IMG/VR virus record: IMGVR_UViG_3300033153_012010
Span: 4,088 to 68,087 of that record
Length of the DNA stretch: 64,000 bases
From: a virus
Reading direction: 5' to 3' (one strand)
In this document: positions 1-59,968 of the stretch, in pieces
How the letters are laid out: every line of letters starts with the position of its first letter
Numbering within the stretch: the stretch's first letter is position 1
Notes under the pieces: generated by a model
What the model was told of the DNA's origin: nothing
Seen by the model: only the letters and a program-made list of their open reading frames with translations
Databases searched by the model: none
Position numbers and translations under genes: made by a program

Positions 1-609
1 TAAGTAATAAACTTTCCCGCCATTGTTTATGATGTCAAATGACACTGGGTCAAAGAAATCCATTACTGGATGTCCAGCTGGGTTAAAATAACCAGCAACC
101 ATTCTGTGCATGGTATCAAAATCATAATCACCTATCTTTTCAAGATTAACTCCAAGAAAATATGTACTCACAACATCTTCAAGCTTTCTTATATCCTCTT
201 CATTCATGTGAGCTGGGATAGTCTTTATATTCTTATATGCTCTCCTTGGGCCTATAAGGTCATAGCCCTCTTCAAACTTTGTTGTAATATCAGAAAGAGA
301 TTCTTCTCTGAATACAACATCACTATCTATTTGAATTATCTTTGTGTAATCTCCATATTCTCCACTCATCACTTTAGTCCAAACATATGAAGTCCCAAGA
401 TGACCTTGCTTAAAATAATCTTCTATTAAATTGTCTGAAGACATTTCAATGTACTCATTGTTTTTGTGCTTGCCAGCTTCTTTAAAATCTTTGTGAGTTC
501 CGAATATGTGAATTTTAGCATCATGATGTTCATGAAAACTTTCTATACATTTTTTTAATACCTTTCCACAATTATAGGCAATTACAAATATGAAAACATC
601 ATCATTCAT
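1..609 (-). CDS. GT-A-type glycosyltransferase, partial (runs off the window start)
   Basis: Manual translation from ATG at 609 (overlaps the upstream stop) gives MNDDVFIFVIAYNCGKVLKKCIESF...IIQIDSDVVF, with a GT2-like N-terminus and a DxD motif. It is open to base 1 and is not in the ORF track. Confidence 0.75.
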   Translation of the reverse strand, partial: MNDDVFIFVIAYNCGKVLKKCIESFHEHHDAKIHIFGTHKDFKEAGKHKNNEYIEMSSDNLIEDYFKQGHLGTSYVWTKVMSGEYGDYTKIIQIDSDVVFREESLSDITTKFEEGYDLIGPRRAYKNIKTIPAHMNEEDIRKLEDVVSTYFLGVNLEKIGDYDFDTMHRMVAGYFNPAGHPVMDFFDPVSFDIINNGGKVYYL

Positions 610-1366
610 CGTATAACTTATTTAGTGTTTCGTAACTAGGAAGACCTCTAAGTAACCCTTCTATTCTATTGATTTCGCCCTGATTAACCTTCGTTTCATT
701 CATTGGGTTTTCTCTATTATAAACATAAAGAATATCTGGAATGTATCTACTCTTATCAACTCCACACATCTCCAGCATTGGAAATTGAAACGAAAGGTCT
801 GGTGCCATTGATACATAATTATCTGTGGTCGGGTCTTTCATATCTTCTGGATTAATCTTCAAGAATAATTCTCTTCTAAATGTTCTCAAGTGACTTGCAA
901 GCCATTTGTGGCTTCTAAATGTTTTATTCTCTCTAACATCAAGTGGATACTCATGATAATGCTCTGAGATGTCTCTATATGGAAACTCTTCATAAGTTCC
1001 ATAAGTCATCCAGCAATCATACTTATTGTATTCTTTATTTACTCTAGCGAGAACTCCATCATGTGGAAACCAATCATCTCCATCAAGGGTAATCACAATT
1101 GATTTCTCCTTAGACATTTCAGTTCCAATCCTTATATTCTCGCCCTGATATTTTCTTTGTTCATTCTGAAGAACTCTAAGGTTATCAAACTTATCTACAT
1201 ACTCCTTAGCTTTTTCATAAGTTCCATCATTAGATTTAGCATCTAAGAATATAATCTCATAGTCAGAGTAGTCTTGAGATATTGCACTATCAAGACATCT
1301 CTCAACGTATTGAATCGCATTCATCGTGCTAATTACGATTGATATGTGATTGATATGTTTCTTCAT
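602..1366 (-). CDS. Glycosyltransferase family 2
   Basis: ISIVISTMNAIQYVERCLDSAISQDY..EIIFLDAKSNDGT and LDGDD (DxD) are GT2 signatures; paralog of 2268..3038. Confidence 0.9.
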   Translation of the reverse strand: MKKHINHISIVISTMNAIQYVERCLDSAISQDYSDYEIIFLDAKSNDGTYEKAKEYVDKFDNLRVLQNEQRKYQGENIRIGTEMSKEKSIVITLDGDDWFPHDGVLARVNKEYNKYDCWMTYGTYEEFPYRDISEHYHEYPLDVRENKTFRSHKWLASHLRTFRRELFLKINPEDMKDPTTDNYVSMAPDLSFQFPMLEMCGVDKSRYIPDILYVYNRENPMNETKVNQGEINRIEGLLRGLPSYETLNKLYDE

Positions 1367-2268
1367 TATTTAAACTCTTTGATAATATCAACTTTTAAAT
1401 CAATTATCTCCTTCTTATCTTCAATTGATAATTTTTTAAAAATGTTATTAATTAACTGCATTTCATCAGTATAAGGATTGTTCATCCAGGTTGGTGGATG
1501 GTACATATGATATAGTTCAATATCTGGTTCATCTGAAATATGCATCTTGTCAACAACATCTACTTTGGCCCAAAAAAATGCATCCTCTGGAGAGTTGGCT
1601 AAAAACAATTCCGCATCATAACCACCTACTTCAAAAAACAAATCTCTCTCAACAAGTATTGAACCTCCTGGGGCTCCAATCATTATTTTTCCACCAAGCC
1701 TTGGGTAGTCTACTTCTGGCATATCTATATTAAGGTCATCAATTGAAAACTCTCCTGACATTACCTTTGGGGTAAACTCTTCATTAATATAAAGAACCCT
1801 TCTTCCAGTAAAGCATTGAATTGCTCTACATTGTTTGTGAGATATGTTGTCAAATAGATTTAAAAAGAAATCAGTTTGAACTAAGCAATCAATATCATGA
1901 AACAAACAGTATTTTGATTTATTACCAAAAAATACAGCCGCATTATATGAGAGGCATTTGTTAAATAGCTTTTCTTCCTCTGGCCTAATCCAAATATAAT
2001 TAAGCTTATTCTTTTTACAAAACTTCGAATGTTCTGGTAATTTTGAATGCTCAACTACTGTGTAAGTAATGTTGAGTGGAGATTTTTCTGCAGCTGCAAG
2101 GAAGCTTTTATACATTGGCTCAGCAAATTCAGCTCTACCTCTTGCTGTAATTATAAAATTTATATCATAAGATTCTTCAGGATTCTGAATAATTACAACA
2201 TTCTCTTCCTTTACTTTATTGTAATCAAACCTCTTAGCTTTTATATGTTTAATTAAATCTTCTTTCAT
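1366..2268 (-). CDS. Glycosyltransferase, GT2/GT7-C (galactosyltransferase-like)
   Basis: FNK..SYN, FHDID (DxD), GGSILV.RDLFFEVGGYD, ED and LYHMYH motifs. Confidence 0.8.
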   Translation of the reverse strand: MKEDLIKHIKAKRFDYNKVKEENVVIIQNPEESYDINFIITARGRAEFAEPMYKSFLAAAEKSPLNITYTVVEHSKLPEHSKFCKKNKLNYIWIRPEEEKLFNKCLSYNAAVFFGNKSKYCLFHDIDCLVQTDFFLNLFDNISHKQCRAIQCFTGRRVLYINEEFTPKVMSGEFSIDDLNIDMPEVDYPRLGGKIMIGAPGGSILVERDLFFEVGGYDAELFLANSPEDAFFWAKVDVVDKMHISDEPDIELYHMYHPPTWMNNPYTDEMQLINNIFKKLSIEDKKEIIDLKVDIIKEFK

Positions 2269-3038
2269 TATAGATTAAGTGTTTCAGCCCCTTTTTTATA
2301 AGACACGATTGTTTTTAAAGGAGTCTTTTGGCTTACTGCTTTGTGAACATCCCATTGAGCTTGTTGGTTTACTCTATCTTCTGAGATTGGATTATCTCTA
2401 TTGTAAATATAAAGAATGGTATCGTTAAACAATGTCTTGTCATGACCAGCCATTTCCATAATAGAAAACATCATTGCTGTATCATAAGACCAACGATAAA
2501 AGTTTCCATCATCATCTTTTAAGTGAGCAAAGTTTGGACTCTGGTCTTCAATTCTTTGATATAATCCAGCTCTAAATGTTCTCAGGTGAGATACTTTAAA
2601 AGGACCAGTTCTAACGTTATCAAATTCTTCTGGAGTATAAGAAGTTGCGAAGCCTCTTTGTCCATTTGTCCAACTTGCCTGTCCATACATAATCCAACAG
2701 TCATGTTCTTTATATTGCTCATCAACATATTTAAGAACTTTCTTGTTTGGAAACCAATCATCTCCATCAAGAAGAACAACGATGTCGTCTTCATCACAAT
2801 GATTCATAATAGCATCATGAATATTTTCAAGAGCTGTCTTACGAACTGTATTATTAATTATAGTAATTTTATAATCTTCTTCTGGAAGCTTCTCAAGAGA
2901 GTCATCTGTAGACATATCATTAATGAATATTACTTCATAATTATCATATCTTTGTGTTATAGCTGTAGCCACACACTTCTCTAAGAAATCTCCTGGATTG
3001 TAGAAAGGTATTATAACCTTCATTTTATTATTTTTCAT
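2268..3038 (-). CDS. Glycosyltransferase family 2
   Basis: VIIPFYN..FLEKCV..Q.YDNYEVIFINDMSTDDS and LDGDDW; paralog of 602..1366. Start placed at ATG 3038. Confidence 0.9.
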   Translation of the reverse strand: MKNNKMKVIIPFYNPGDFLEKCVATAITQRYDNYEVIFINDMSTDDSLEKLPEEDYKITIINNTVRKTALENIHDAIMNHCDEDDIVVLLDGDDWFPNKKVLKYVDEQYKEHDCWIMYGQASWTNGQRGFATSYTPEEFDNVRTGPFKVSHLRTFRAGLYQRIEDQSPNFAHLKDDDGNFYRWSYDTAMMFSIMEMAGHDKTLFNDTILYIYNRDNPISEDRVNQQAQWDVHKAVSQKTPLKTIVSYKKGAETLNL

Positions 3039-3642
3039 CGTCAATAAGTTTTTGTAAATAAGTGTTTAACTTATTAATTGTTTCTTCACTCGCTGCATTT
3101 GTCTTTGAAGGGTTAATACATTCGATTCTTGTGTCTCCTTCATGAATTGGAATGAAATATTTAACAAAGTTATCATTGCCATTAAGTTTTTTCTTAACAT
3201 CCTTTAGAAATGATTCAACATCACCATGACTCATGTTCCCAATGTTTATATAAAATACTAGAATCATTTCAGCAAGTTCTTCAACATCTTTTTCTTGAAG
3301 GATTAGGTGTCTAAGAATTCTTTTTTCTTTTTCAGATTCAACCTGAAGACTTTCATAATTTAATTTCAAATCTGCTCCAGGAATTGGTAGATTCCCTTCA
3401 AATTTTCCTCTAACTCTCGCAAGGGTTTCTTTACAAAGTGCATAGAAATATTTTCTAACCCAGAATCTTTCAATTTGCATGTGTTTATCTTTTGATAATT
3501 CTGCAATGGTTGCGTAAAGGTGGAATGATTCATAAGCATCATCTATTAAGTACGCCATTTGTTCATCTGTGAGCTCTACTATATGAACTGGTTCTCCAAG
3601 CATTATTCTTGCTCTCTCAATTGTTTGTTTTGTGTCTATCAT
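3028..3642 (-). CDS. Chimeric protein: neck (gp13-like) helical segments fused to a portal clip-like segment
   Basis: Residues 10-110 align by eye with the N- and C-terminal parts of 23913..25100; residues 128-178 align with the portal segment VFYIDVGN...YFIP..RIE. Confidence 0.75.
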   Translation of the reverse strand: MIDTKQTIERARIMLGEPVHIVELTDEQMAYLIDDAYESFHLYATIAELSKDKHMQIERFWVRKYFYALCKETLARVRGKFEGNLPIPGADLKLNYESLQVESEKEKRILRHLILQEKDVEELAEMILVFYINIGNMSHGDVESFLKDVKKKLNGNDNFVKYFIPIHEGDTRIECINPSKTNAASEETINKLNTYLQKLIDDEK

Positions 3643-4613
3643 TTTTCTTCTTTTTTATTTACCATTTGTTCAATTTTATCGAAAATTTTATCTATCTCAA
3701 ACTTCTCTTCTTCAGTTGTTTCATTCCATTTCTTTCCGAATTTTTTTATTGCAACTTTATCTAATGAAGAACTCTCTACTGTTAGGTCTCCAAGTTCAAG
3801 TTTTTGATGACACCCTTTTATGTTAGAGAAGTCTATAGATTCTAAATTTATAAATTTGTCATCAAGAAATTTCGTATTCATTATTCTTCTCCTAACTCCT
3901 GCTTCCATGTTTTTATATAACACTTCTTTCTCGTCTTCTATAGATTGCTGTACCCTTCCAGCTGGAACTCCAACAAGAGTGCTTTCTTTATAGGATACCA
4001 TCTTGTTTCTTGGAAACGTTTCTGTGTAGTCAAATAAAGATGCTTCCAACCCTTCTGCGTTTACAAACTTTGATTTCTTTGTAAGTTTATAAATATCCTT
4101 TCTCCTAAAGATATGACCCTCTGTTGAGAATGGGTATCCAAAATCAAGATAGTGAAGCGTCCAATCCCATTTCATAAAATCTCCACAATCTTCTATATCA
4201 TTTAATACATTCTCTGCACCAAGAGTATAACACTTTGTAGTATTCTCCCCAAGTCTAAGAGAAAAGCATACAACATCATCATCTGCTTCTATTTGACTAG
4301 TAATATCTTCTAGCTTGATTTCTTTATATATGATGTTATCATCAAGAAAAAAACAAGCGTAGTCATGTTTGCTATTAAGATTCTCTACAACTTGTTCTCT
4401 AAAGTCATCTGTTTCCCTCTCAAAGTTTACGTGACTAAACCTCTTATCATCTACAACACGACCATATGCCTCATCAAAATACTCTTCAGTACCTTTGATT
4501 ATAATATTCAAATCAAATACACCTGGGGCATTTTTGTTCACGCTCTCTAGGAAAATATTTAACTGAGCAGCATTGTCGTTGCTAAATACTATTGCATTAA
4601 TCTTTTGACTCAT
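3639..4613 (-). CDS. Putative glycosyltransferase (GT-A-like)
   Basis: AIVFS...AAQL..FLES N-terminus and FFLDDNI acidic motif; lies in the glycosyltransferase operon. Confidence 0.55.
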   Translation of the reverse strand: MSQKINAIVFSNDNAAQLNIFLESVNKNAPGVFDLNIIIKGTEEYFDEAYGRVVDDKRFSHVNFERETDDFREQVVENLNSKHDYACFFLDDNIIYKEIKLEDITSQIEADDDVVCFSLRLGENTTKCYTLGAENVLNDIEDCGDFMKWDWTLHYLDFGYPFSTEGHIFRRKDIYKLTKKSKFVNAEGLEASLFDYTETFPRNKMVSYKESTLVGVPAGRVQQSIEDEKEVLYKNMEAGVRRRIMNTKFLDDKFINLESIDFSNIKGCHQKLELGDLTVESSSLDKVAIKKFGKKWNETTEEEKFEIDKIFDKIEQMVNKKEEK

Positions 4614-10231: not shown

Positions 10232-10525
10232 ATGTTAGATACCGAAATAAACTCATTACATGGATTGTTAATTATTGCTGTTGTAGAATACTGGCACGGC
10301 AAAGTTCTTTTTGAACAGAATGATTCCATAATAAGAGATAGACTCAGTGAATATCTATTAGAGAAAATCAATGTAGAAATTTCTGGAATAGAATGGGACG
10401 AGGATGTTTTATTAATTGAAAAGGGTTGTGCTGGAGCAACAATCATTTTTGTTGATGAGAACGGAAAAGAAAAAAGAGTAGATTTTGAAACAGCGATTAC
10501 AAAAACATTAGTACATGAAAGATAA
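10232..10525 (+). CDS. Hypothetical protein
   Basis: 97-aa ORF overlapping the start of the downstream glycosyltransferase. Confidence 0.6.
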   Translation: MLDTEINSLHGLLIIAVVEYWHGKVLFEQNDSIIRDRLSEYLLEKINVEISGIEWDEDVLLIEKGCAGATIIFVDENGKEKRVDFETAITKTLVHER

Positions 10526-11867: not shown

Positions 11868-11869
11868 AT

Positions 11870-11908: not shown

Positions 11909-11922
11909 CATCCTGGAGAGGA

Positions 11923-39485: not shown

Positions 39486-39496
39486 ATTTAGAAATT

Positions 39497-48116: not shown

Positions 48117-48136
48117 TTTCCCTTTATTATAATTAG

Positions 48137-49360: not shown

Positions 49361-52300
49361 ATGTCTGGATTTTATTTTAAACCTATAGAAAGAATATTTT
49401 TGAACCTGTCAGGGGGGACTGTGACGGGAGATACTATATTCACAGAAGGCTTGTATGCAGCAAGATTATCTGGAGATACAATATACTCAGGAGATACAGA
49501 CCTTGATATAATCATTAGAAATATATCTTCAGGATTAGATGACCTAACAAGAGTACAGCCAGGAACAAATATATCAACTGGTGGAACTGGAAATTTCCCA
49601 ATCGTAAACCTTATTGATGACATTGTTCTTAATTCAGTTTATGCAATAAGCTTGTCTGGTGATACACTATATTCAGGAAATACAGACCTAGATACAATTA
49701 TTAGAACTATTGCTGGAGACAGTGAAGATACAACCAGAATTCAAGGTGGAACTAATATAAATACTGGAGGTACTGCAAATGTTCCAATTGTAAACCTTGA
49801 TGATGATATTTCTCTTAGCTCAATATTTGCTACAAACTTATCTGGTAATACTTTATTTTCTGGTAATACAGATGTAGATACAATAATTAGAAACATCGCT
49901 TCTGGTCTTGATGACGTAACCAGAGTTCAAGGAGGAACGAACACGAATACAGGAGGGACAGCGAATGCTCCAATAGTAAATTTAGATGACAATATTGTAT
50001 TAGGCTCAGTAAGTGCAGATACAATGAGTGCTCAAACCATGAATGCAGGAGTTTTATTATCTGGTGGAACAGACCTATATAATATATTCTTAACTGCAGT
50101 TGATGGAAACGACATCACAAGAGTTCAGCCAGGAACTAATATAAATACTGGAGGTACAGCGAACAATCCGATTGTAAATCTTGATGACGATATTGTCCTC
50201 AATTCTATAAACGCTTCAACTGTTTCTGGAGATACATTCTATTCTGCAGGAACAAGTCTTGAGACAGTGATTAGAAATATTGCAGGAGTTGCTGGTGATA
50301 TTACAAGAGTTCAGCCAGGAACTAATACATCTACTGGTGGAACAGATAACTTTCCATCTGTAAATCTTCTTGATGACATTGCACTTAATTCTATTAATGC
50401 ATCAATTGTTTCTGGAGATACATTCTATTCTGCAGGAACAAGCATGGACACAATCATTAGAAACATTTCCTCTAGCCTTGATGACGTAACCAGAGTTCAG
50501 GGTGGAACGAATATAAATACAGGAGGAACAGCAAATACTCCAATTATAAATTTAGAAAATAATATTTTATTAAATTCTGTTTCAGCAGTAACAATGTCTG
50601 CCTCTACTTATTATGGTAGTGGTTTTAATCTTACTGATATTGCACACAGTGGATTAACAGGAGTTGGAAATAGAACACATCAAGAGTTGGATGAATTTTG
50701 GAAATTTTCTATTGGCTCTATTCTTGAGACAACATCTGTTTCTGTTATTTCTTCTGGTGGTACAGTTAATTTATTTTTAGAAAAAAATGGAGGCGGTGAT
50801 TTAACTCTTAATTTATCTGGTGGAACATTTGTTTTAGATACAACCCCAACTTTATCTATAGAACTTAGTGCTGGAACAAATATATCTCCGCAAGTTAATT
50901 ATGTTTATATAGATGGTGGTAGCATGACGCTAACATCTTCTACAATTTCTTTCCCATCAATTGAGCATGTTCCTGTTGCTACAACCGTTGTACAAAGTGA
51001 GTCAGGAGTAACTAGTGATGGGGTTTATAAATTGCATGTATGGACTGACCATTTATTTTTAGAAGGAGATAATGGACACCTTAGTCACTTAAATGCGTGG
51101 ATTAGGTCTCACCATGCTACATGGATTAGTGGAGTTGATTTAACGTCAACAATTACAACAAATGGCGGCTCCCTTGATAATTTTAATGTAGCTACAACTG
51201 TTGGTGTTGTTCGTCAACTTCATGAACATCCATATCCAGTAAGAAATACAACAGATACTGGTTCTACAGGTCATGTGCTAGTAATTAATGACCCCACTAC
51301 TCCATACGTTAAATACAGTGACTTGAATTTAATAATACAAGACGCAGAAGGAACTTCTCTTAGAAATACTAATGATAGATATAATTTAGTGATTTGGGGA
51401 ATTGCTAATGAGGATGATAATAATTCTCATATTATTGTTAATTTGCCAACTGGAAAATACACTGGTGGTGGTATTATAAAAGATAGCGCATCTATATTTG
51501 ATGATGACAAGACAGCAAACTATTTAATACCAGCTGAATATGTTGGTGTTGGATTTCTTATTGCAAGATTGACAGTAAAATATACTTTTGCTGGTGGAGG
51601 AACCCTTCAAATATTACAAAATGAAGACCTTAGAGGTCAATCCCCAACTGTTGTTGCTGGTGGGACCATTCATGGTATAACAGAATTTGCTGATAATGTT
51701 TTTAAAATATTTGACCAAGATGACTCTTCTAAAGAGATGGTCTTTCAAGTTTCTGGATTAACAACAGGAAATGTTAGAACATATACAGCTCCAGATAATG
51801 ATGGTATATTAGCAACAAGCGGGAATTTATCAGGAATCAATATGGATATTTCTGTCATTAATGATACAATAATATTTAGTGCTGGAACAAGTGTAGGAGT
51901 AGATAATTTTACAACGGCTGTTACATTATTTGATAACATAGCTTATTTTGATAGGACAGACCAAGCTAGTGCATATACTCTTGACCTTAGTTCTTTAGCC
52001 CCAACTGGTGGAACAGATTTTTATACAACAGCAGCAACACTTAATGGAAATGTTTTATACTTTGATAGAATAGATGGGGCAAGCGCTTATTCTGTAGACC
52101 TGTCTTCAATAGTAACAAGTGGTGGAACAGGAGGAAGTGGTGGAACTATTTATTCTGCTACAGAACCATCACCAGCTACGTTCTCAGCGAATACATGGGC
52201 TAGAACAACTGATTATAACCTTTTTGCTTATGATGATAATTTAAGCAAATGGGTTGGAGTAAACTCTGATAGAATTGGAGGAGCAAGAAATAAGGCTAAT

Positions 52301-52609
52301 CAAAATAATATTTTTTTAAGATATGAAGATGATACACCATATAATATTAATCCAGTTAGAATGCATGGAGATTATGTAATAACAAATGTTGTTGCAAGTG
52401 GTAGAGACCTAGATTCTTGGAATGCTCATATATTAACTGGAACAAGCGTGACAACAGATTCAATTTATAATCTTAGATTAAATACCGCAAGAGTTGGAAT
52501 AGATAATGATGTTAATGTTGAAGTTGCTTCTGGAACTTCTATCTATTTATATATGTCAGGAAGTAGTGTTGCATATCCTAAGATAGATGTTTACATAAGA
52601 AATAGATAA
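49361..52609 (+). CDS. Repeat-containing virion fibre/appendage protein (1082 aa)
   Basis: Six TRVQ.GTN modules in the N-terminal 400 aa; TATTTATA at 49308. Confidence 0.8.
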   Translation: MSGFYFKPIERIFLNLSGGTVTGDTIFTEGLYAARLSGDTIYSGDTDLDIIIRNISSGLDDLTRVQPGTNISTGGTGNFPIVNLIDDIVLNSVYAISLSGDTLYSGNTDLDTIIRTIAGDSEDTTRIQGGTNINTGGTANVPIVNLDDDISLSSIFATNLSGNTLFSGNTDVDTIIRNIASGLDDVTRVQGGTNTNTGGTANAPIVNLDDNIVLGSVSADTMSAQTMNAGVLLSGGTDLYNIFLTAVDGNDITRVQPGTNINTGGTANNPIVNLDDDIVLNSINASTVSGDTFYSAGTSLETVIRNIAGVAGDITRVQPGTNTSTGGTDNFPSVNLLDDIALNSINASIVSGDTFYSAGTSMDTIIRNISSSLDDVTRVQGGTNINTGGTANTPIINLENNILLNSVSAVTMSASTYYGSGFNLTDIAHSGLTGVGNRTHQELDEFWKFSIGSILETTSVSVISSGGTVNLFLEKNGGGDLTLNLSGGTFVLDTTPTLSIELSAGTNISPQVNYVYIDGGSMTLTSSTISFPSIEHVPVATTVVQSESGVTSDGVYKLHVWTDHLFLEGDNGHLSHLNAWIRSHHATWISGVDLTSTITTNGGSLDNFNVATTVGVVRQLHEHPYPVRNTTDTGSTGHVLVINDPTTPYVKYSDLNLIIQDAEGTSLRNTNDRYNLVIWGIANEDDNNSHIIVNLPTGKYTGGGIIKDSASIFDDDKTANYLIPAEYVGVGFLIARLTVKYTFAGGGTLQILQNEDLRGQSPTVVAGGTIHGITEFADNVFKIFDQDDSSKEMVFQVSGLTTGNVRTYTAPDNDGILATSGNLSGINMDISVINDTIIFSAGTSVGVDNFTTAVTLFDNIAYFDRTDQASAYTLDLSSLAPTGGTDFYTTAATLNGNVLYFDRIDGASAYSVDLSSIVTSGGTGGSGGTIYSATEPSPATFSANTWARTTDYNLFAYDDNLSKWVGVNSDRIGGARNKANQNNIFLRYEDDTPYNINPVRMHGDYVITNVVASGRDLDSWNAHILTGTSVTTDSIYNLRLNTARVGIDNDVNVEVASGTSIYLYMSGSSVAYPKIDVYIRNR

Positions 52610-53087: not shown

Positions 53088-54518
53088 ATGGCAAAAACTA
53101 TAGACCCAGATGATTTATCACAAGGAACCGAGATAATCTTCGTTCCATCAGCAAGAACAATAGAAGTTGTTGGATTTACAGATGATTCAGGTTCATCAAT
53201 TCAAGATAGTGGTACGTCCGCTGTGAATGGAGTAACGATGCAGTGTGTATACTCATTCTGTAAGGAAGAGTGGAGAACTGACAGTGCTCTAATTAAATAT
53301 CCATTTCCTCTAGTATCAATTACCGAGGAATCTTTTGAATTCGTAAACGAATGGAATTGGAAAACTGGTACAACAATAAACTTAGTAAGAGATGGTGGTT
53401 GGTCGCTTAAAGATACTGGTGGTACATCAGTAGAAGAATATATGAATGTAACATCACTTGGAGCATTTGATTCATCAGTAAACGATTTAGCTTACTACCT
53501 TCAGGTGTCTGGTACATCTACACTTCCAACAAATATTGTGTTCTCTGGAGAGGTAAATCAAGCTGTAAGGATTTATGGTGATGCTTCTCATGGAAACATC
53601 GACTACAGAGATACATTCAAGTTATATGTTAGAGAACAAGGTAAGACCTATGGTTTCTATGACCTTCTTACAGAACAGAATTTATCAACAATAACATTTA
53701 AGAAATATGCCCTTCCTCTTAGTAATGGTACTGACCTTAAAATTACAACTGCCGATATTGGAATTGATTCTGATTCTAACGGACTTGCAGATGTAGACCC
53801 ATACTCTGGAATGAGTATTACTTATTCTGGTACACCATTCTCAAGAGATATTGGGGGTTCTAGTTATGATTTCTCAATTCTTATTGATGGAAATAACGCT
53901 GTTAAAGAAAAAATTTATGAATTCGTTCAATTCTCTCTTAGACAAACTCTTGATATTGACAGTGGACCTGGAGATGTTAAAGGTAAGGTTGCTGAGGAAT
54001 TATTAGAATTTGTTGGGGACACACTTAAAACCAAATTGACAGATGATGGTGGGGTTTATATTGATAACTTTGCTGTGGCCGATACCAACAGTATAACGTT
54101 TGTTGATGATACTGGAACTGAAAGAAACTTCCCATTCGTTGCGACAGGTACTCTGGTGTTTAATGATAACCTCCAAAATGATGTATATTCAATTTATCGT
54201 GCATTCTTTACTAATGATGACGCTGGAGATAACTTCGGTAGAGACTTTGGTACAGCGAGCGCAACAACCATTAATGACAACAGTTCTTCTGGTATTACAG
54301 GGAACGTTTCTGGTAACACATCAATCGCATTCGATTATGATTATGATAATAATGACCAAAGGGGAATTGGAGCTCTTGCATCAGATGCACCATTTACTGC
54401 GGTAGCTCTTGGACTTGGAACAGCACAGTATGTTGTAACAACAGGAACGATTGTAAGGAGTACATCGAACTCGATTAGTTTCGTGGCCGCCCTAGAAAGA
54501 AATTACCTGAATCCATAA
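53088..54518 (+). CDS. Virion structural protein
   Basis: TATTTATT at 53036; GVTMQCVYSFCKEEW motif related to 56864..57964; C-terminal ERNYLNP. Confidence 0.75.
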   Translation: MAKTIDPDDLSQGTEIIFVPSARTIEVVGFTDDSGSSIQDSGTSAVNGVTMQCVYSFCKEEWRTDSALIKYPFPLVSITEESFEFVNEWNWKTGTTINLVRDGGWSLKDTGGTSVEEYMNVTSLGAFDSSVNDLAYYLQVSGTSTLPTNIVFSGEVNQAVRIYGDASHGNIDYRDTFKLYVREQGKTYGFYDLLTEQNLSTITFKKYALPLSNGTDLKITTADIGIDSDSNGLADVDPYSGMSITYSGTPFSRDIGGSSYDFSILIDGNNAVKEKIYEFVQFSLRQTLDIDSGPGDVKGKVAEELLEFVGDTLKTKLTDDGGVYIDNFAVADTNSITFVDDTGTERNFPFVATGTLVFNDNLQNDVYSIYRAFFTNDDAGDNFGRDFGTASATTINDNSSSGITGNVSGNTSIAFDYDYDNNDQRGIGALASDAPFTAVALGLGTAQYVVTTGTIVRSTSNSISFVAALERNYLNP

Positions 54519-54539
54519 TGGTAATTAATATTAAAAAAT

Positions 54540-54573
54540 TAAGACCACTAATTTATTTTAGGGGTTTTTTTTT
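54540..54573 (+). terminator. Probable intrinsic terminator
   Basis: Imperfect stem aagaccactaa / ttaggggtttt followed by a long T run. Confidence 0.55.
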
Positions 54574-54601
54574 GTAATATTTATAATAAAAAGAATTAGT
54601 T

Positions 54602-55033
54602 ATGGCTGGTATAGTATTTTATTTTGAAGATAACGATAAAGACGTTTGGTCTGGTAGAAGAATAGACTTAGATGCTTGGAATTACAATTGTAAAATTGGA
54701 GGCATAGATAAAGCTATTGTAGTAAACTTAACCCAACAAGATTTAATTACATTTGATGGAAATATGGATATTACTTTCGTAGACGAAATGCCATCATTGA
54801 GCGGGAATGTTACACAACTTGTAACGCCAACTGAAGTTTCAGGCACTACATCATTATGGGATTTTAATCATGAAACAGATTGGTATGTATTTGGACCAGG
54901 GTATGGTTGGAAAGGTAATTATTTTGGTGATACATTTCTTACTTTGCCACAATGCTCTCCAGTTTATCATCATTCTGTTTTCGTAGGTTCAACAGTGATG
55001 TATCATAGAGATAATATTTTAAATCAACAATAA
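54602..55033 (+). CDS. Divergent SPOUT (TrmL/TrmH-like) methyltransferase-fold protein
   Basis: C-terminal SLWDFNH...YVFGP..G...LTLP...HS...STVMYHR resembles the SPOUT knot pattern. Confidence 0.5.
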   Translation: MAGIVFYFEDNDKDVWSGRRIDLDAWNYNCKIGGIDKAIVVNLTQQDLITFDGNMDITFVDEMPSLSGNVTQLVTPTEVSGTTSLWDFNHETDWYVFGPGYGWKGNYFGDTFLTLPQCSPVYHHSVFVGSTVMYHRDNILNQQ

Positions 55034-56593
55034 ATGGCAGTATCATTAGTAGGTGAAATAGTAAACAGTTGTGATGCAGAAGTTTTTAATGTTGGAAACA
55101 TTTCTGGTGATGATGATTTCGTTGAGGGAACTGGGGCTATTGGCCTTAAGATAGCAGCTAGTTATGCAGAAATTTATACAACTACACTTGGTGCCACGGC
55201 ACCATATGATTTTTCTAGTGGTGGTGCTGAATTCGGATGGCATTATATCTTGTGGTTTAATACTAAGTTAGCAATACCAACTATTGGTGGATTAAGATGT
55301 ATTTTTGGAAATGGTACTGATAGAGCAGAATGGAATGTTGACCCTGTAGGTTTCTATAAGGGTGGTTTTTTAACTAAAGTAATTAGCCCAGAGAGAGATT
55401 TTGATACAATTAATGCTGGTACTTGGACTACAGGTGGAAATCCAGCACAACTAAGTAATATTACTACAATGGGAGGAGGTATAGAGACAGTACCATCTAT
55501 AATGGGTAACTTTAACTCTGGGCAACTTGACCAAATGACGATTGGACTTGGATTAAGAGTTGATGCTGGTACTGTTGGTACACCTAATACATTTGAGGTA
55601 GTTAGAGCTGCTGATGAGGATACTACTTTTTATGGGTGGTGGTCATCATCTAATGGTGCTGTTGTTGGTAAAGGAAAATTATTTATTGGACCATCGGCAG
55701 GTTCAACTACTTCGGTGTTTGATGATACTGCATTCGTGGTAATCTTTGCAGATGAATTGGTATCAGAAGATTTTTATGAAATTAACACAAGAGGAGCTGG
55801 TACTGACATAACATGGGATTTAGCATCAATTTCAACAGCGAATTCTGATAATGTAAGGTGGGGACTTACTGTAGATTCTTCAACTAATTTATTCTCTGAT
55901 AAGAATGGTGTATGGACTGGTGGTGGAGATTTTATTTTAGATTCAAGCGTTGGACTTACAGGTACGACAATTGTTGATTCTAACAAATTATACCAGAGTG
56001 GAGCAACATTGAATGGAATAAGTGTTCTTGCTGCAAATACAAGTGCTTATACAGCTTTTATAGAATCAGGAAATCCAGAGAAGATAGAAAATTCTACATT
56101 TACATTTAGCACAGGACATTCAATAGAAATAACATCTCAAACAGTAACAGCATTTACATTTAGTAATAATACATTTATTGATTATGGGTCTGATGAAACA
56201 GATTCTTCTGCAATTTTTAATAATAGTGGAGGAGCAATAATAATAAACGTTACAAATAATGGTACATCCCCAACTATTAGAAATGGAGATGGAGCATCTA
56301 CTACAGTTAATAATACCAAGACATTAACCTTGACAGACCTTGTTGATGATACAGAGGTTAGGATATATTCTGCTGGAACAGGGGTTGAACTTGCTGGGCA
56401 AGAAAGTGTTACTGGTGGGACATTTGTATATGCATATAGTTATGCTGCAGATACACTAATAGATATTGTAGTTTTTAAAGAAGAATATACTTTTAATGAG
56501 CCAGATGGTAGAATTAAAAATTTTGAGTTACCAAATGGTAACTCTTCAATTCCAATTAATCAAAACTTTGATAGGAATTATTATAATCCATAA
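55034..56593 (+). CDS. Virion structural protein (beta-rich)
   Basis: G/T/S-rich; C-terminal DRNYYNP matches ERNYLNP of 53088..54518. Confidence 0.75.
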   Translation: MAVSLVGEIVNSCDAEVFNVGNISGDDDFVEGTGAIGLKIAASYAEIYTTTLGATAPYDFSSGGAEFGWHYILWFNTKLAIPTIGGLRCIFGNGTDRAEWNVDPVGFYKGGFLTKVISPERDFDTINAGTWTTGGNPAQLSNITTMGGGIETVPSIMGNFNSGQLDQMTIGLGLRVDAGTVGTPNTFEVVRAADEDTTFYGWWSSSNGAVVGKGKLFIGPSAGSTTSVFDDTAFVVIFADELVSEDFYEINTRGAGTDITWDLASISTANSDNVRWGLTVDSSTNLFSDKNGVWTGGGDFILDSSVGLTGTTIVDSNKLYQSGATLNGISVLAANTSAYTAFIESGNPEKIENSTFTFSTGHSIEITSQTVTAFTFSNNTFIDYGSDETDSSAIFNNSGGAIIINVTNNGTSPTIRNGDGASTTVNNTKTLTLTDLVDDTEVRIYSAGTGVELAGQESVTGGTFVYAYSYAADTLIDIVVFKEEYTFNEPDGRIKNFELPNGNSSIPINQNFDRNYYNP

Positions 56594-56651
56594 TATTTAT
56601 TATAGTAACAATAATTTATATATTAATAAACAACTTAAAAAATAAGAAAAA

Positions 56652-56855
56652 ATGAACAACGTAGACATCGCAATTCAAAAAGTTAGACAATTACAACAAA
56701 TGCTTTTTGATTCCAAACAAAGTCCAGATGACCTTTTTAAATTCACACATGTAGTGATAGAATATATGGAGAAGGCTAGTACAGAAATCAAAACCAATTA
56801 CGAAGAAATCAGTAAAAAATTAACTGATGAAATGAATACTGGTAAAAAACAATAA
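56652..56855 (+). CDS. Small hypothetical protein
   Basis: 67-aa helical ORF with an A-rich start context. Confidence 0.6.
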   Translation: MNNVDIAIQKVRQLQQMLFDSKQSPDDLFKFTHVVIEYMEKASTEIKTNYEEISKKLTDEMNTGKKQ

Positions 56856-56863
56856 GACAATAA

Positions 56864-57964
56864 ATGCCTGTAGAAGATTTTACATTTAATGGAGTTAGTA
56901 AATTTATTTCTATTTCCAGTGGAGTTACCATAGTTGATGTACAGGATATGTACTCAAGATGGAAGGAGTGGACCCAATTGTCAGATAATTCTAAATATCT
57001 TCAAGCACTGAGAACATTTGGGGGTGACCCCACTATTGCAGGACAGTTCGCACCAAGATATTATTTCCTTCAAAATGGTTGGAGAGTTTTTGTTGATACT
57101 GGGGAATTACTTTCTGTAGGAACTAATCTATATACCGAAGAGCTTGTAAGTCCATATATTATTGGGTCTGGTTCTTCTGTGTCTGATAGTAACTCTGATG
57201 CTGTTGTTGTTGATAATGGAATTGCTGAGTCTCTTGATTATAATGGGATTGTTCATGTTAACCCAACTATAGGGATTCCTGGAACAGAATTCCCAGCTGG
57301 AACAATTGCTCAACCTGTTACAACATTAGCTGATGCTGTAACGATTGCAAATGATAGAGGTATTTTAGAAATTGGAATTCATGGAACTAATTATGTTAGC
57401 ACAGATGTTAGTGGATTTGTGATAAAAGGAGGTAGAGTAACTGATGTATTAGTATTCATTACAGGAAATTACATTAACAATTCAACACTTAAAGAACTTG
57501 TTATTGCTGGTTCATATTCTGGTTTTGTAGTATCTGAAACTTGCCAATTAGCAAATGGACTAACTGGCGATGGTGGTGTTTTTAAAGATTGTGGACTTCA
57601 AGGGTCTTATAATATTAATGAAAATTCAAATCTTTCAATATTAAATTGCTCATCAATGGTTCCAGGTGATAATTCGCCCTCAATTCATTTAAGTAGTGGT
57701 TCAACAGTTAATTTAAGGAAGTATAGTGGTGGAATGATGTGGTATGATATAGAAGTTGGAACAGACATAAGCGCTGAGTTCCTTGCTGGTAGTTGTCAAA
57801 TATTAACTGGATGTACTGGAGGTGAAATGCATATTAGAGGGATAGCATCTCTTGATGACCAATCAAGTGGAACAACAGTTGATATAGGGGGATTGATAAT
57901 ACCTTCAAGACTTGCACAACAACAAACATTAAATGTAAATACAGAGATTACAAAAAATAAATAA
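56864..57964 (+). CDS. Virion structural protein
   Basis: DVQDMYSRWKEW...KY..A.R..GGDP N-terminus; G...PAGT...PV..LADA motif. Confidence 0.75.
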   Translation: MPVEDFTFNGVSKFISISSGVTIVDVQDMYSRWKEWTQLSDNSKYLQALRTFGGDPTIAGQFAPRYYFLQNGWRVFVDTGELLSVGTNLYTEELVSPYIIGSGSSVSDSNSDAVVVDNGIAESLDYNGIVHVNPTIGIPGTEFPAGTIAQPVTTLADAVTIANDRGILEIGIHGTNYVSTDVSGFVIKGGRVTDVLVFITGNYINNSTLKELVIAGSYSGFVVSETCQLANGLTGDGGVFKDCGLQGSYNINENSNLSILNCSSMVPGDNSPSIHLSSGSTVNLRKYSGGMMWYDIEVGTDISAEFLAGSCQILTGCTGGEMHIRGIASLDDQSSGTTVDIGGLIIPSRLAQQQTLNVNTEITKNK

Positions 57965-58060: not shown

Positions 58061-58079
58061 TTTTTGAATATTTATAGAT

Positions 58080-58820: not shown

Positions 58821-59623
58821 GGACATCTACAGGGAGTTTAATTGCACCACTTACATCAATAAGAGAAATTAGCATCTTAAAAGAGGGTTACACAAATATT
58901 ACTTCAGAAGATATATTCTCAGTTAATCCTTTTGATAAGAATGGGGAAATAAAACTTTGGAATGCATTTTGGAGAGTTATTAGTCTTAAAAAAACCCTAG
59001 GAGAAACTGAAACACTGAGAGATTTAATTAAGAAACATTTTCAAGAAAAACATTTTGATAGGTTATATAAATCTGAAAAAGAAGTAATTGCTGTTGTTAC
59101 AAATCTAACCGACAAGAAACCAGAATTCAAATCATCAAACAACAATAAGTATGAAGACTTCATTGATTGGCTTTGGGCATCATGCAATGCGCCAATGTTC
59201 ACATCAATATTAGAAAAGGATGATAATCAATATGCAGATGGAGCTATCTTCCAACATATACCAATTCAAGTGGCCATAGAAAATGGGGCAACAGAAATTG
59301 ATGTTATTGTTCTTAGTCCAGAGGGATTTGGTGTTGTTAAGAGAAATAAAGTTAATAACATATTTCAAAACTTCTTTAGGTTAATGGAAATTATGCAAAG
59401 AAAAATTGCTAAAGACAACATTGACCTTAACAAGCTTAACTCTCATGGAAAAGAAGTTTCCATCAATGTTTACTACACGCCATATAGGCTTACAGAAAAT
59501 TCTCTAGTATTCGACAAAGAAGAAATGCTGAAGTGGTGGGATGAAGGATACATTAATGCAAAATCTGGAAATGTAAAGAAATACAAAATCACTAGGTCCA
59601 ACGTATTCAAAGAGGTTGAATAA
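58688..59623 (+). CDS. Patatin-like phospholipase
   Basis: ISGGGSKG oxyanion loop, GTSTG nucleophile elbow, ASC.AP.F and YADGA catalytic Asp. Confidence 0.95.
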   Translation: MEKIRKKKKKRALCISGGGSKGAWAGGAIQYLLEDGDKDYDLYVGTSTGSLIAPLTSIREISILKEGYTNITSEDIFSVNPFDKNGEIKLWNAFWRVISLKKTLGETETLRDLIKKHFQEKHFDRLYKSEKEVIAVVTNLTDKKPEFKSSNNNKYEDFIDWLWASCNAPMFTSILEKDDNQYADGAIFQHIPIQVAIENGATEIDVIVLSPEGFGVVKRNKVNNIFQNFFRLMEIMQRKIAKDNIDLNKLNSHGKEVSINVYYTPYRLTENSLVFDKEEMLKWWDEGYINAKSGNVKKYKITRSNVFKEVE

Positions 59624-59659
59624 TAATCTTTTTGATTCTATTTATATAAAAAGCGTAAT

Positions 59660-59968
59660 ATGGACATTGGAACTGGACAAACTGTATATGAACAAATAAT
59701 TTCTGTGAATGCAGATAATGCCCCTGTTGTTGGAACTACATTCGATACAACGATGTATAGAGATGGTTCTGAATACTCTGGAATTACAGTAGGAGTATCA
59801 TTAACAGATTCATCAAGAGGAGTTTATACAGCAACCTGGTCAGCAACAACGACTGGAGATTATCAATTATACGCAAAAAACAATATAACTTCTGTTATTT
59901 TTATATCAGATAATGTTATTGTCAAACCAGACAACGAACTAAGCACAATTATTTATATCGGAACGTAA
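59660..59968 (+). CDS. Small Ig-like virion protein
   Basis: TATTTATA at 59639; GVYTATW....GDYQL beta-strand pattern. Confidence 0.65.
   Translation: MDIGTGQTVYEQIISVNADNAPVVGTTFDTTMYRDGSEYSGITVGVSLTDSSRGVYTATWSATTTGDYQLYAKNNITSVIFISDNVIVKPDNELSTIIYIGT

What the first reader, a model, noticed from the sequence alone, without database searches (positions are those of the whole stretch)
1..59968. Candidate virion glycosylation system: an [S/T]-[G/A]-x-T motif marks exterior virion proteins next to six glycosyltransferases
Seen: the tetrapeptide [S/T][G/A]xT occurs across structurally unrelated proteins. It is very frequent in the three fibres (SGGT, SATT, TGFT, SADT, TGLT). There are about 12 copies in the variable N-terminal/central part of the sheath (SGST, SAMT, SANT, SAAT, TGQT, SGYT, TAYT) and none in its conserved C-terminal domain. 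The capsid has 3, all in its insertion region (TGFT, SAAT, SAVT), and the neck protein has 4. It also occurs in the LamG proteins, the BppU-like and Ig-like proteins and the 53-58 kb proteins. In the DUF285 protein, canonical ..WD repeat positions are replaced by SGWT three times. By eye I found none in the terminase, portal, protease, scaffold or tail tube, and one in the 774-aa vWA protein. The window also encodes five GT-A-like and one GT-B glycosyltransferases. Established: some actinobacteriophages glycosylate capsid and tail proteins with their own glycosyltransferases, and the Bacteroidota O-glycosylation sequon D-[S/T]-[A/I/L/V/M/T] is a different motif. Inference: this is an acceptor sequon for a phage-encoded glycan coat or another post-translational modification.
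Basis: partly seen in the sequence, partly recalled or inferred. Interest (0 to 1): 0.88.

Follow-up and report, generated by a model that had tools for sequence, protein, structure and literature searches.

The report
Clade-specific S-G/A-x-T motif on virion proteins
A four-residue motif, Ser/Thr-Gly/Ala-x-Thr, is about five times too frequent on the tail fibres, sheath, neck and other late virion-module proteins of one lineage of very large T4-like phages, which looks like a tag for a chemical modification such as sugar attachment, although no modification has been shown.

Summary
[ST][GA]xT occurs 241 times in the window's ORFs against 54 in shuffles. Of these, 237 lie in 22 late ORFs (48.8 expected), while 39 early or virion-interior ORFs have 4 against 4.9. 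The signal is order-specific, survives 12-residue local shuffles and masking of all repeats, is not a DNA-level effect, and tops an unbiased pattern scan. It is specific to one lineage: 24 related loci show 4.2-fold and 56 more distant T4-like loci 1.26-fold. A complete 389-kb relative confines it to 23 of 486 ORFs. Outgroup sheaths lack the motif at aligned strands. In the sheath model it sits in strands, turns, helices and loops. A core of four glycosyltransferase genes lies next to the head genes in three relatives. No data link these enzymes to the motif. My best reading is a recognition site for phage-directed O-glycosylation, with confidence about 0.35. A fold or assembly role without modification is nearly as likely.

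The parts
1..609 (-). GT2-type glycosyltransferase, cut by the window start (294 aa in the full contig)
   Evidence: Pfam PF00535 at 26 bits against a 23.3 cut-off; full ORF at L082:3812-4696
602..1366 (-). GT2 glycosyltransferase, 254 aa
   Evidence: PF00535 E 3.6e-24; best PDB sequence matches are generic GT2 domains, with chondroitin and heparosan synthases at E 1e-7 to 3e-6
1366..2268 (-). GT-A-like glycosyltransferase, 300 aa, part of the clade-conserved core
   Evidence: PF10111 at its cut-off; orthologues in G001, G003 and G025 at 32-61% identity; no match in cultured phages
2268..3044 (-). GT2 glycosyltransferase, 258 aa, part of the clade-conserved core
   Evidence: PF00535 E 2e-18; orthologues at 59-79% identity in G001, G003 and G025; 13 related loci in viral contigs
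3639..4613 (-). 324-aa ORF, possible further glycosyltransferase
   Evidence: No Pfam or NCBIfam match; language-model look-alike, score 0.99, of a viral cluster automatically named glycosyltransferase; a lead only
10515..11867 (+). GT-B (GT4-like) glycosyltransferase, 450 aa, part of the clade-conserved core
   Evidence: PF00534 at 25.3 bits against a 26.4 cut-off; weak NCBIfam and PDB GT4 matches; orthologues at 53-73% identity in G001, G003 and G025; 24-31% identical homologues in phi92-like and other phages, annotated glycosyltransferase in the phi92 and PHB05 RefSeq records
19163..20839 (+). Major capsid protein (gp23 type), 3 motifs at residues 181, 192 and 226
   Evidence: PF07068 E 1e-72; counts
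23913..25100 (+). Neck or head-tail adaptor protein, 4 motifs against 0.64 expected
   Evidence: phrog_211
27088..29772 (+). Tail sheath, 12 motifs against 3.2 expected, all in residues 107-563
   Evidence: PF04984, PF17482 and phrog_23; orthologue alignments; model with pLDDT 80.6
30205..38772 (+). 2855-aa fibre-like protein, 96 motifs against 19.4 expected, with 11 copies of the roughly 62-aa repeat
   Evidence: no Pfam, PHROG or PDB match
38772..41424 (+). Three LamG-type (Laminin_G_3) proteins with 2, 5 and 4 motifs
   Evidence: PF13385
41569..45327 (+). 1252-aa fibre-like protein, 34 motifs against 8.9 expected
45331..47307 (+). DUF285-repeat protein, 11 motifs against 2.0 expected, including SGWT three times
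   Evidence: PF03382 E 3e-110
47763..48649 (-). Two small late proteins (117 and 170 aa) with 3 and 2 motifs
   Evidence: orthologues in relatives also carry the motif
49361..52609 (+). 1082-aa fibre-like protein, 39 motifs against 4.6 expected, with six tandem 62-aa repeats at residues 63-438
   Evidence: 217 homologues in metagenomes
53088..57964 (+). Late proteins of 476, 143, 519 and 366 aa with 6, 1, 6 and 4 motifs
   Evidence: no family match
59660..59968 (+). 102-aa late protein with 3 motifs against 0.54 expected
   Evidence: weak sub-threshold Invasin_D3 match; orthologues with 3-4 motifs in G003, G012, G013, G015 and G025

Best explanation
S/T-G/A-x-T is a short linear motif kept by selection at the protein level on late virion-module proteins of one lineage of very large T4-like phages. 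These have about 32-36% G+C, and complete relatives measure 389 and 519 kb. The host is probably a member of Bacteroidota, which is an inference from the nearest cultured relatives. The proteins that carry it include the fibres, the sheath's inserted domains, part of the capsid protein, the neck, and the LamG, DUF285 and small late proteins.

The most likely mechanism, which is inferred and not shown, is a recognition site (sequon) read in the cytoplasm by a phage-encoded glycosyltransferase. That enzyme would put the first sugar on the Ser at position 1 or the Thr at position 4. The other glycosyltransferases of the conserved cluster beside the head genes would then extend it into an oligosaccharide coat on the virion.

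Shown here: the motif, its specificity, its restriction to late virion-module proteins and to one clade, that homologous sheaths outside the clade align at the same strands without it, and the conserved glycosyltransferase core.

Inferred: that the motif is modified at all, that the modification is a glycan, and that these enzymes make it.
For: 1. The same tetrapeptide is over-represented in more than 15 late proteins, including several with different family assignments. Twenty-two late ORFs hold 237 against 48.8 expected, and 39 early or interior ORFs hold 4 against 4.9.

2. Specificity is asymmetric. The reversed motif is 0.97-fold, Ser at the last position 0.94-fold, Asp at the first position 0.57-fold, and non-Gly/Ala residues at position 2 are 0.5-0.65-fold. 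SA.T, SG.T and TG.T are the three top patterns of their template in an unbiased scan of repeat-masked proteins, with z of 10.5, 10.0 and 5.3. The next best pattern in any template reaches 6.6. The same three lead in 19 ORFs of relative G001, a set chosen from two regions rich in motif-bearing ORFs, of which the 9 shown have no BLAST homologue in this contig.

3. In the complete relative G025, 23 of 486 ORFs hold 312 against 57.9 expected. All but one lie in two gene blocks (58-101 and 135-160 kb), and the first block holds the sheath, neck and capsid orthologues. The other 463 ORFs hold 56 against 70.0.

4. The motif is clade-specific. Twenty-six full-length clade sheaths have 6-13 motifs (median ratio 4.0). 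Fifty-one outgroup sheaths have 1-7 (median 1.18), Mann-Whitney p 6e-13. Flavobacterium phage immuto shows 1.3-1.4-fold, and the complete outgroup G030 1.11-fold.

5. Outgroup sheaths align at the same strands without the motif. At the aligned strand start SGSTLAV, 18 of 22 clade sheaths and 0 of 16 outgroup sheaths have it. At NSGYTVS the figures are 11 of 22 and 0 of 16.

6. In the sheath model the 12 sites lie in strands, turn-to-strand and strand-to-loop junctions, helices and loops.

7. At conserved sheath sites the S, G/A and T residues are kept while x varies, for example SGST, SGAT, SGTT and SGMT.

8. A glycosyltransferase core (GT10-like, GT2, GT-A-like, GT-B) is conserved and syntenic beside the head genes in G001, G003 and G025. 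By BLAST at E 1e-5, G030 has no hit to the GT-A-like or GT-B member; it has a 33-35% identical GT2 and a short 45-residue match to the GT10-like ORF.

9. Of 9 contigs that hold both a relative of the GT2 and a sheath, 8 are clade members.
Against: There is no direct evidence of any modification.

The motif and the glycosyltransferase core are inherited together in one lineage, so their co-occurrence is a single event and not a correlation.

GT2 genes also occur in 3 of 5 distant contigs and in G030, none of which has the motif.

Three divergent clade contigs of 31-36 kb carry the motif but show no GT2. Their gene order differs and only 9-12% of each genome is present, so this says little either way.

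The glycosyltransferases match only generic GT2 and GT4 models, far below any equivalog cut-off. They could serve DNA hypermodification, which phage glycosyltransferases are known to do (abstract of bioRxiv 10.1101/2023.12.21.572611), or modification of host glycans. A thymidylate-synthase-family gene is present in G001.

In the fibre repeat family the motif residues are among the best-conserved positions across 22 aligned homologues, as would also be expected of fold-determining residues.

The residue after the Thr tends to be Ile or Val (45 hydrophobic against 30.5 expected), which fits a strand.

Solvent exposure could not be measured because the tools return no coordinates.
Confidence: 0.35

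Rival explanations
1. The motif is structural or serves assembly, with no modification. S-G/A-x-T would be a favoured building block of this lineage's beta-rich fibre and decoration domains, such as a loop-to-strand or helix-capping element. It would have been inherited with the 62-aa fibre repeat and become fixed by convergence in other late proteins.
For: The motif residues are among the most conserved positions of the fibre repeat, both in 19 copies in the window and across 22 aligned homologues. About 8 of the sheath's sites are conserved across the clade. A hydrophobic residue is favoured at +4. Three of 12 sheath sites sit at turn-to-strand junctions. The low-confidence fibre model places SG.T just before a helix and TGGT in a hairpin.
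Against: Homologous strands in 16 outgroup sheaths lack the motif. The 12 sheath sites fall in five different secondary-structure contexts. Asp and Asn, which I recall as the usual turn formers, are not favoured at position 1 (0.57- and 1.26-fold), and Ser is not accepted at position 4. The motif appears in proteins assigned to different families (sheath, gp23 capsid, LamG, DUF285 repeats). There is no comparable enrichment in 56 other T4-like loci, in immuto or in G030.
Confidence: 0.3
2. The motif is a sequon for a different modification, or for enzymes other than the neighbouring glycosyltransferases. Examples are phosphorylation or acylation, or a transferase encoded elsewhere in the roughly 300-500 kb genome. 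The local glycosyltransferase cluster would then act on DNA or on host envelope glycans.
For: All the motif statistics fit any Ser/Thr-directed enzyme. Only about 21% of this genome is in hand. Phage glycosyltransferases are known to modify DNA (abstract).
Against: No kinase or other protein-modifying enzyme was found among the window and upstream ORFs scanned in the family-library calls (5, 10, 11, 16-18, 38, 62, 71), though 12 small ORFs were not scanned. The glycosyltransferase core is the conserved enzyme set seen beside the head genes. No Tet/JBP dioxygenase was found in 5 clade contigs, but that search rang in no control genome and so is uninformative.
Confidence: 0.12
3. The motif is a repeated weak binding site, for a host surface polymer, a metal ion or a common virion partner. 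It would give the particle surface many low-affinity contacts.
For: It is restricted to late virion-module proteins and has many copies per protein. It co-occurs with lectin-like LamG and DUF285 domains.
Against: I recall no known ligand-binding motif of this form. The three fixed residues carry no charge or aromatic ring, and their secondary-structure contexts vary. Literature searches for the motif found nothing.
Confidence: 0.08
4. The enrichment is an artefact of composition, low complexity or repeats.
For: The late proteins are rich in Ser, Thr and Gly, and the fibres are repetitive.
Against: The signal persists with 12-residue local shuffles, after masking of all repeated fragments, against the reversed and permuted motifs, and in a set of G001 ORFs from regions without listed homologues here.
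Confidence: 0.01

Closest known systems
Virion glycosylation of actinobacteriophages (Freeman et al. 2023, Cell Host Microbe). The paper is not held. I know it only from passages that cite it in PMC12619734 and PMC13313380.
   Same: Phage-encoded glycosyltransferases are thought to coat virion proteins with glycans.
   Different: According to the citing passage, the glycans there sit at the C-termini of the capsid and tail-tube subunits. Here the tail tube has no motif. The sites are internal and spread over fibres, sheath, neck and other late proteins, and they follow a defined tetrapeptide. The phage is a very large T4-like myophage. Nothing has been shown experimentally.
Virus-encoded glycosylation in chloroviruses and other giant viruses with non-canonical sequons. 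The reviews PMC9614988 and PMC5408694 were seen only in a search listing; the details are recalled.
   Same: A virus brings its own cytoplasmic glycosylation machinery and uses acceptor sites that differ from the host's.
   Different: Those viruses infect eukaryotes, and the chlorovirus capsid carries N-linked glycans as I recall. Here the motif would be an O-linked Ser/Thr site in a tailed phage.
Cytoplasmic glycosylation of repetitive adhesins: HMW1C/NGT at N-x-S/T, and the autotransporter heptosyltransferases TibC and AAH. This is recalled and comes from no call.
   Same: It would work in the same way. A soluble transferase modifies many sites on a large, repetitive, beta-rich surface protein before export or assembly.
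   Different: N-x-[ST] is not enriched here (0.94-fold). No homologue of those enzymes was identified, because the glycosyltransferases match only generic GT2 and GT4 models.
General O-glycosylation sequon of Bacteroidota, D-(S/T)-(A/I/L/V/M/T).
   Same: It is a three-residue Ser/Thr sequon used in the probable host phylum.
   Different: That pattern is not enriched in the late proteins (60 against 62.7). As I recall, the host system acts in the periplasm, where phage proteins assembled in the cytoplasm would not be found.
Phage glycosyltransferases that hypermodify DNA (Pyle et al., bioRxiv 10.1101/2023.12.21.572611; abstract read)
   Same: Clusters of phage GT-A and GT-B enzymes related to LPS or teichoic-acid enzymes, sometimes next to structural genes.
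   Different: Those clusters depend on a cytosine methyltransferase and a 5-methylpyrimidine dioxygenase. Neither was seen in the parts of the clade genomes examined, but the dioxygenase search was uninformative. DNA modification would not explain a protein motif.

Membership tests
T4-like myophage | gp23-type major capsid protein and S77 prohead protease | tested here: met
   PF07068 E 1e-72 and PF03420 E 3.4e-31
T4-like myophage | Contractile sheath, tail tube, gp20-type portal and large terminase | tested here: met
   phrog_23, PF04984 and PF17482; phrog_4542, phrog_213 and phrog_2
GT2 glycosyltransferases (GT-A fold) | Pfam GT2-type match at or above the gathering score | tested here: met
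   Four ORFs (1-609, 602-1366, 1366-2268, 2268-3044) score 26, 86, 27.3 and 67.3 bits against cut-offs of 23.3 or 27.3
GT4/GT-B glycosyltransferases | Pfam Glycos_transf_1 match above the gathering score | tested here: inconclusive
   25.3 bits against a 26.4 cut-off, covering the C-terminal part only; weak GT4 matches in NCBIfam and the PDB; homologues annotated glycosyltransferase in the phi92 and PHB05 RefSeq records
Phage virion O-glycosylation (actinobacteriophage type) | Phage-encoded glycosyltransferases | tested here: met
Phage virion O-glycosylation (actinobacteriophage type) | Glycans on C-terminal extensions of the capsid and tail-tube subunits | tested here: not met
   The tail tube has 0 motifs, and the capsid's 3 are internal at residues 181-229 of 558. 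This tests the candidate sites, not glycans.
Phage virion O-glycosylation (actinobacteriophage type) | Glycan adducts shown on virion proteins | not testable with these tools
   Needs mass spectrometry or glycan staining of particles
Bacteroidota general O-glycosylation sequon | Enrichment or use of D-[ST]-[AILVMT] | tested here: not met
   60 against 62.7 expected in the 22 late ORFs
N-x-S/T sequon (NGT or oligosaccharyltransferase type) | Enrichment of N-x-[ST], x not Pro | tested here: not met
   169 against 180.7 expected in the 22 late ORFs
Ordinary beta-turn or strand cap | One recurring secondary-structure context, and tolerance of the usual turn formers Asp and Asn | tested here: not met
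   Five kinds of context among 12 sites of the sheath model; D[GA].T 0.57-fold and N[GA].T 1.26-fold; absent at aligned strands of 16 outgroup sheaths

The most novel reading that the evidence does not exclude
A lineage of 300-500 kb T4-like phages, probably infecting Bacteroidota, builds its own glycan coat. A cytoplasmic phage glycosyltransferase reads the sequon S-[G/A]-x-T on folded late virion-module proteins, and three or more further transferases extend the sugar. In this genome a carbohydrate-type sulfotransferase and sugar dehydrogenases or isomerases encoded just upstream may decorate it further. With Ser-Gly acceptor sites, GT2 enzymes whose nearest solved relatives include chondroitin and heparosan synthases, and a sulfotransferase, the product could even be a proteoglycan-like sulfated coat. 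It would be the first defined O-glycosylation sequon for a tailed phage.
Probability: 0.3. Interest if true: 0.9.

Novelty: new variant of a known kind. Interest (0 to 1): 0.78.

Why it matters
Glycosylated virions are established for a few actinobacteriophages and for giant viruses, but I know of no acceptor motif for a tailed phage. My searches for this motif in print and for phage virion glycosylation found no report of one.

A sequence signature that predicts which proteins and residues are modified would let virion modification be read from metagenomes. It would name a whole uncultured lineage of very large aquatic phages as candidates. It would also give a simple test: express four enzymes together with a 102-residue acceptor protein.

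A glycan coat would bear on host recognition, particle stability and resistance to proteases or grazers, and on how exposed phage surfaces evolve.

Even if no modification exists, a tetrapeptide imposed on many late proteins in one clade needs an explanation.

Tried and rejected
**DNA-level cause.** Rejected, because codon usage at the motif equals the background and the 241 sites have 187 distinct 12-mers.

**Composition or low complexity.** Rejected by local shuffles and by permuted motifs.

**Repeats alone.** Rejected by fragment masking. An earlier whole-protein masking masked internal repeats poorly and was replaced.

**Known sequons.** D-[ST]-[AILVMT] and N-x-[ST] are not enriched.

**Fold of the fibre repeat.**
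- The monomer model of fibre residues 1-440 had pLDDT 38 and was not used for fold search.
- No PDB relative was found with either fibre sequence or with a profile of 19 repeat copies.
- There was no tblastn match in cultured phages.

**Co-occurrence test with fibre-bearing contigs.** Five contigs showed no GT2. Two are clade members whose expected glycosyltransferase region lies off the contig. For the other three, 34 of 71, 48 of 124 and 22 of 37 ORFs have a BLAST hit in G025 or G000, at about 40% median identity. The test is therefore uninformative.

**Other searches that led nowhere.**
- Megablast of the window against cultured phages found no match.
- The single-sequence search for relatives of the GT2 found nothing and was repeated with an alignment.
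- The Tet/JBP search rang in no control genome and is uninformative.
- timed out and was rerun with fewer shuffles.

**Tools and papers not available.** Freeman et al. 2023 is not held. Supplementary files were not consulted.

**Jobs not run.** Complex prediction was not used, because the report claims no protein-protein binding.

Full report
**What the window is.** The window is bases 4088-68087 of a 68,087-bp viral contig that CheckV rates 21% complete. It encodes a T4-like myophage:
- a gp23-type capsid protein and an S77 prohead protease;
- a sheath;
- a tail tube, large terminase and portal;
- a neck adaptor.

G+C is 32-36%. The nearest cultured relatives by capsid protein are Microcystis phage Mel-JY01 and Flavobacterium phage immuto, at about 40-42% identity. 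Relatives found later include complete records of 388,594 bp and 518,809 bp, the latter with terminal repeats. This is therefore a lineage of very large phages.

- I called 61 ORFs (corrected) and counted [ST][GA].T against 2000 shuffles per ORF. The total is 241 observed and 54.2 expected (sd 7.1), and no shuffle reached it.
- Split by class, 22 late ORFs (11,225 aa) hold 237 against 48.8. The 39 early, head-interior, tube, terminase, portal and miscellaneous ORFs (9,025 aa) hold 4 against 4.9.
- In the 11 largest late proteins the count of 221 compares with 44.8, 46.3 and 49.4 under global, 30-residue and 12-residue shuffles. Local composition therefore does not explain it.
- The pattern is directional and specific. 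The reversed motif is 0.97-fold, Ser at the last position 0.94-fold, a two-residue gap 0.76-fold, S[GA].T 7.6-fold, T[GA].T 2.8-fold, D[GA].T 0.57-fold and N[GA].T 1.26-fold. Ser/Thr, acidic/amide or aliphatic residues at position 2 are 0.5-0.65-fold.
- Codons at the motif follow the background. AGY and TCN serine codons are both used, and there are 187 distinct 12-mers, so selection acts on the protein.

**How much is due to repeats?** Much of the raw count is.
- Spacings of 30, 21/26, 5 and 6 residues recur.
- The fibres carry 19 copies of a unit of about 62 residues. Its consensus is TRVQxGTNxSTGGTxNxPxxNLDDDIxLxSVxATTxSGGTxYSGxTxLxxIF, with up to four motifs per copy.
- I masked every 50-residue fragment that resembles an earlier fragment anywhere in the late proteins. 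What remains is 41 against 9.6 in the three fibres. In the other late proteins it is 52 against 14.5, and the highest of 1000 shuffles was 28.
- On this masked set I scanned all three-residue patterns in six templates without prior choice. SA.T (26 against 4.3), SG.T (32 against 6.5) and TG.T (23 against 8.0) are the top three of their template, with z of 10.5, 10.0 and 5.3. The best pattern in any other template has z 6.6 on 6 occurrences.
- Flanking preferences are weak. A hydrophobic residue, mostly Ile or Val, follows the Thr (45 against 30.5), and charged residues are scarce at -3, +2 and +4.

**Where else does it occur?**
- A search with the sheath gave 80 loci. The 24 loci with the closest sheaths (best-segment identity 51-81%) pool to 1321 against 311.6, or 4.24-fold, with a range of 2.3-5.35. 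The other 56 loci (30-39%) pool to 559 against 443.6, or 1.26-fold, with a range of 0.29-2.53.
- For the sheath alone, 26 full-length clade proteins carry 6-13 motifs (median ratio 4.0). Fifty-one outgroup proteins carry 1-7 (median 1.18), Mann-Whitney p 6e-13. Fourteen of the 91 sheath hits were shorter than 750 aa and were left out.
- Flavobacterium phage immuto shows 1.3-1.4-fold, with equal counts of the reversed motif. Only 100 kb of its 160 kb were examined.
- In the complete relative G025 (486 ORFs), 23 ORFs hold 312 against 57.9 expected. All but one lie in two gene blocks at 58-101 and 135-160 kb, and the first block holds the sheath, neck and capsid orthologues. The other 463 ORFs hold 56 against 70.0.
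- In the 153-kb relative G001, 19 ORFs taken from two regions rich in motif-bearing ORFs again give SA.T, SG.T and TG.T as the top three patterns. The 9 of them shown have no BLAST homologue in this contig. A set of 122 ORFs from the rest of that contig shows no enrichment.
- A complete outgroup, G030 (184 kb, sheath 38% identical), has 68 against 61.4.

**Is it a fold requirement?**
- In an alignment of 23 clade sheaths, about eight columns carry the motif in half or more of the sequences. S, G/A and T are kept while x varies, for example SGST, SGAT, SGTT and SGMT. Many further sites are sporadic.
- Where outgroup sheaths align well, they lack the motif. At SGSTLAV, the start of a strand conserved in all sequences, 18 of 22 clade and 0 of 16 outgroup sequences have it. 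At NSGYTVS the figures are 11 of 22 and 0 of 16, and at TGYT 14 of 22 and 0 of 16.
- The AlphaFold model of the sheath (38-sequence alignment, mean pLDDT 80.6) places the 12 sites in pLDDT blocks of 73-92. Two lie within strands, three at turn-to-strand junctions, two at strand-to-loop junctions, three in helices and two in loops.
- Together with the failure of Asp and Asn to substitute for Ser, this argues against a single ordinary structural element.
- I could not compute solvent exposure, because the tools return no coordinates.
- The fibre repeat itself could not be modelled as a monomer (pLDDT 38). It has no solved relative by sequence or profile.
- The repeat is widespread in metagenomes, with 217 proteins at E of 0.001 or better. 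Its motif residues are among its best-conserved positions. This is the strongest point for the structural rival.

**The glycosyltransferases.**
- The window starts inside a minus-strand cluster. It holds four ORFs with GT2-type Pfam matches, two ORFs without family matches, and a thioredoxin. One of the two unmatched ORFs looks like a viral glycosyltransferase cluster to a language model.
- A GT-B-like gene lies at 10515-11867.
- Upstream in the contig lie a GT10-like ORF, a carbohydrate-type sulfotransferase, a 2-hydroxyacid dehydrogenase, a GFO/IDH/MocA oxidoreductase and a SIS-domain protein.
- In G001 and G003 the cluster is conserved in order beside the head genes. In the complete G025 four members remain: the GT10-like ORF, the GT2 at 2268-3044, the GT-A-like at 1366-2268 and the GT-B.
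- The sulfotransferase and the sugar-modifying enzymes have no BLAST hit at E 1e-5 in those three relatives.
- PF00535 hits occur in 5 of 7 clade contigs where the expected region could be on the contig.
- An alignment of the GT2 found 13 loci. Of 9 whose contig also holds a sheath, 8 are clade members at 52-82% identity.
- GT2 genes also occur in 3 of 5 distant contigs. By BLAST at E 1e-5, G030 has a 33-35% identical GT2 and a short 45-residue match to the GT10-like ORF, but no hit to the GT-A-like or GT-B members.
- The GT-B has 24-31% identical homologues in phi92-like, rV5-like and other cultured phages. The GT-A-like ORF has none.

**Weighing.** The features point to a short linear recognition motif rather than a fold element:
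- it is a tetrapeptide with three fixed positions;
- it is imposed on many late proteins, several with different family assignments;
- it is confined to late virion-module proteins;
- it is absent from homologues outside one clade;
- it sits in varied local structures.

A modification sequon is the commonest reason for such a pattern. The conserved enzyme set seen beside the head genes is a set of glycosyltransferases. I therefore rank phage-directed O-glycosylation first, at about 0.35.

The link between motif and enzymes rests only on shared inheritance in one lineage. The enzymes are generic, and they could serve DNA hypermodification (abstract; a thymidylate-synthase-family gene is in G001) or host glycan modification. 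No modification has been observed.

The structural or assembly reading is close behind at 0.30, chiefly because of the fibre repeat. A different modification or enzyme (0.12) and a binding role (0.08) remain possible. An artefact is excluded.

**Comparison with known systems.**
- Virion glycosylation is known for actinobacteriophages. According to a citing passage, the glycans there sit at the C-termini of capsid and tail-tube subunits. The original paper is not held. Here the tube has no motif and the sites are internal.
- The Bacteroidota sequon D-[ST]-[AILVMT] and N-x-[ST] are not enriched.
- In mechanism, the closest analogues are cytoplasmic transferases that modify many sites on repetitive adhesins (HMW1C/NGT, TibC/AAH). 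This comparison is recalled and was not tested.
- Searches for the motif in print found nothing. Searches on phage virion glycosylation found no sequon for a tailed phage. Papers outside the held library and supplementary files were not seen.

**Verdict.** It extends to a clade-wide signature confined to late virion-module proteins.

Noticed in passing
Contig bases 1-4087 upstream of the window (L082:2-3811): Just outside the window, on the same strand as the glycosyltransferases, lie a SIS-domain protein, a GFO/IDH/MocA oxidoreductase, a 2-hydroxyacid dehydrogenase, a carbohydrate-type sulfotransferase (PF03567) and a GT10-like ORF. Apart from the GT10-like ORF, these have no BLAST hit in relatives G001, G003 or G025, so this end of the cluster is variable.
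   Followed up: partly
L021/G018:8238-10877 and 10931-13291; also L014, L015, L016, L022, L024, L025: A divergent subclade carries two sheath genes in tandem, of 879 and 786 aa, each about 51% identical to the window's sheath. Both are enriched in the motif, with 11 and 9 copies.
   Followed up: no
window 3028-3642 (-): A 204-aa ORF inside the glycosyltransferase cluster has no family match. It shares a 55-residue stretch (47% identity) with the neck-protein ORF of outgroup G030, and it has weak language-model and structure leads to T4 gp13, with scores below 0.9.
   Followed up: partly
window 58688-59623 (+): A patatin-like phospholipase (PF01734, E 4.7e-29) sits between late structural genes and the terminase. 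It has no motif, and G025 has an orthologue.
   Followed up: no
G025:52456-56097: The portal orthologue in the complete relative G025 is a 1213-aa ORF, against 681 aa here. The aligned part covers 425 residues at 67% identity, which suggests a large insertion or fusion.
   Followed up: no
window 11923-14247 (-): A 774-aa protein with an N-terminal von Willebrand A domain lies just upstream of the head genes. It is conserved in G001 (51% identity), but no hit was found in G003 or G025.
   Followed up: no
Proteins P0002, P0004, P0016: Some metagenomic homologues of the fibre combine the 62-aa repeat with YadA-head-like (PF05658) stretches or pentapeptide repeats. One homologue is labelled as coming from a Nitrosopumilaceae genome bin.
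   Followed up: no
window ORFs of set A (early and interior proteins): D-[ST]-[AILVMT] is 1.75-fold over shuffles in the 39 early or interior ORFs (40 against 22.9, 0 of 500 shuffles) but not in the late proteins. I have no explanation.
   Followed up: no
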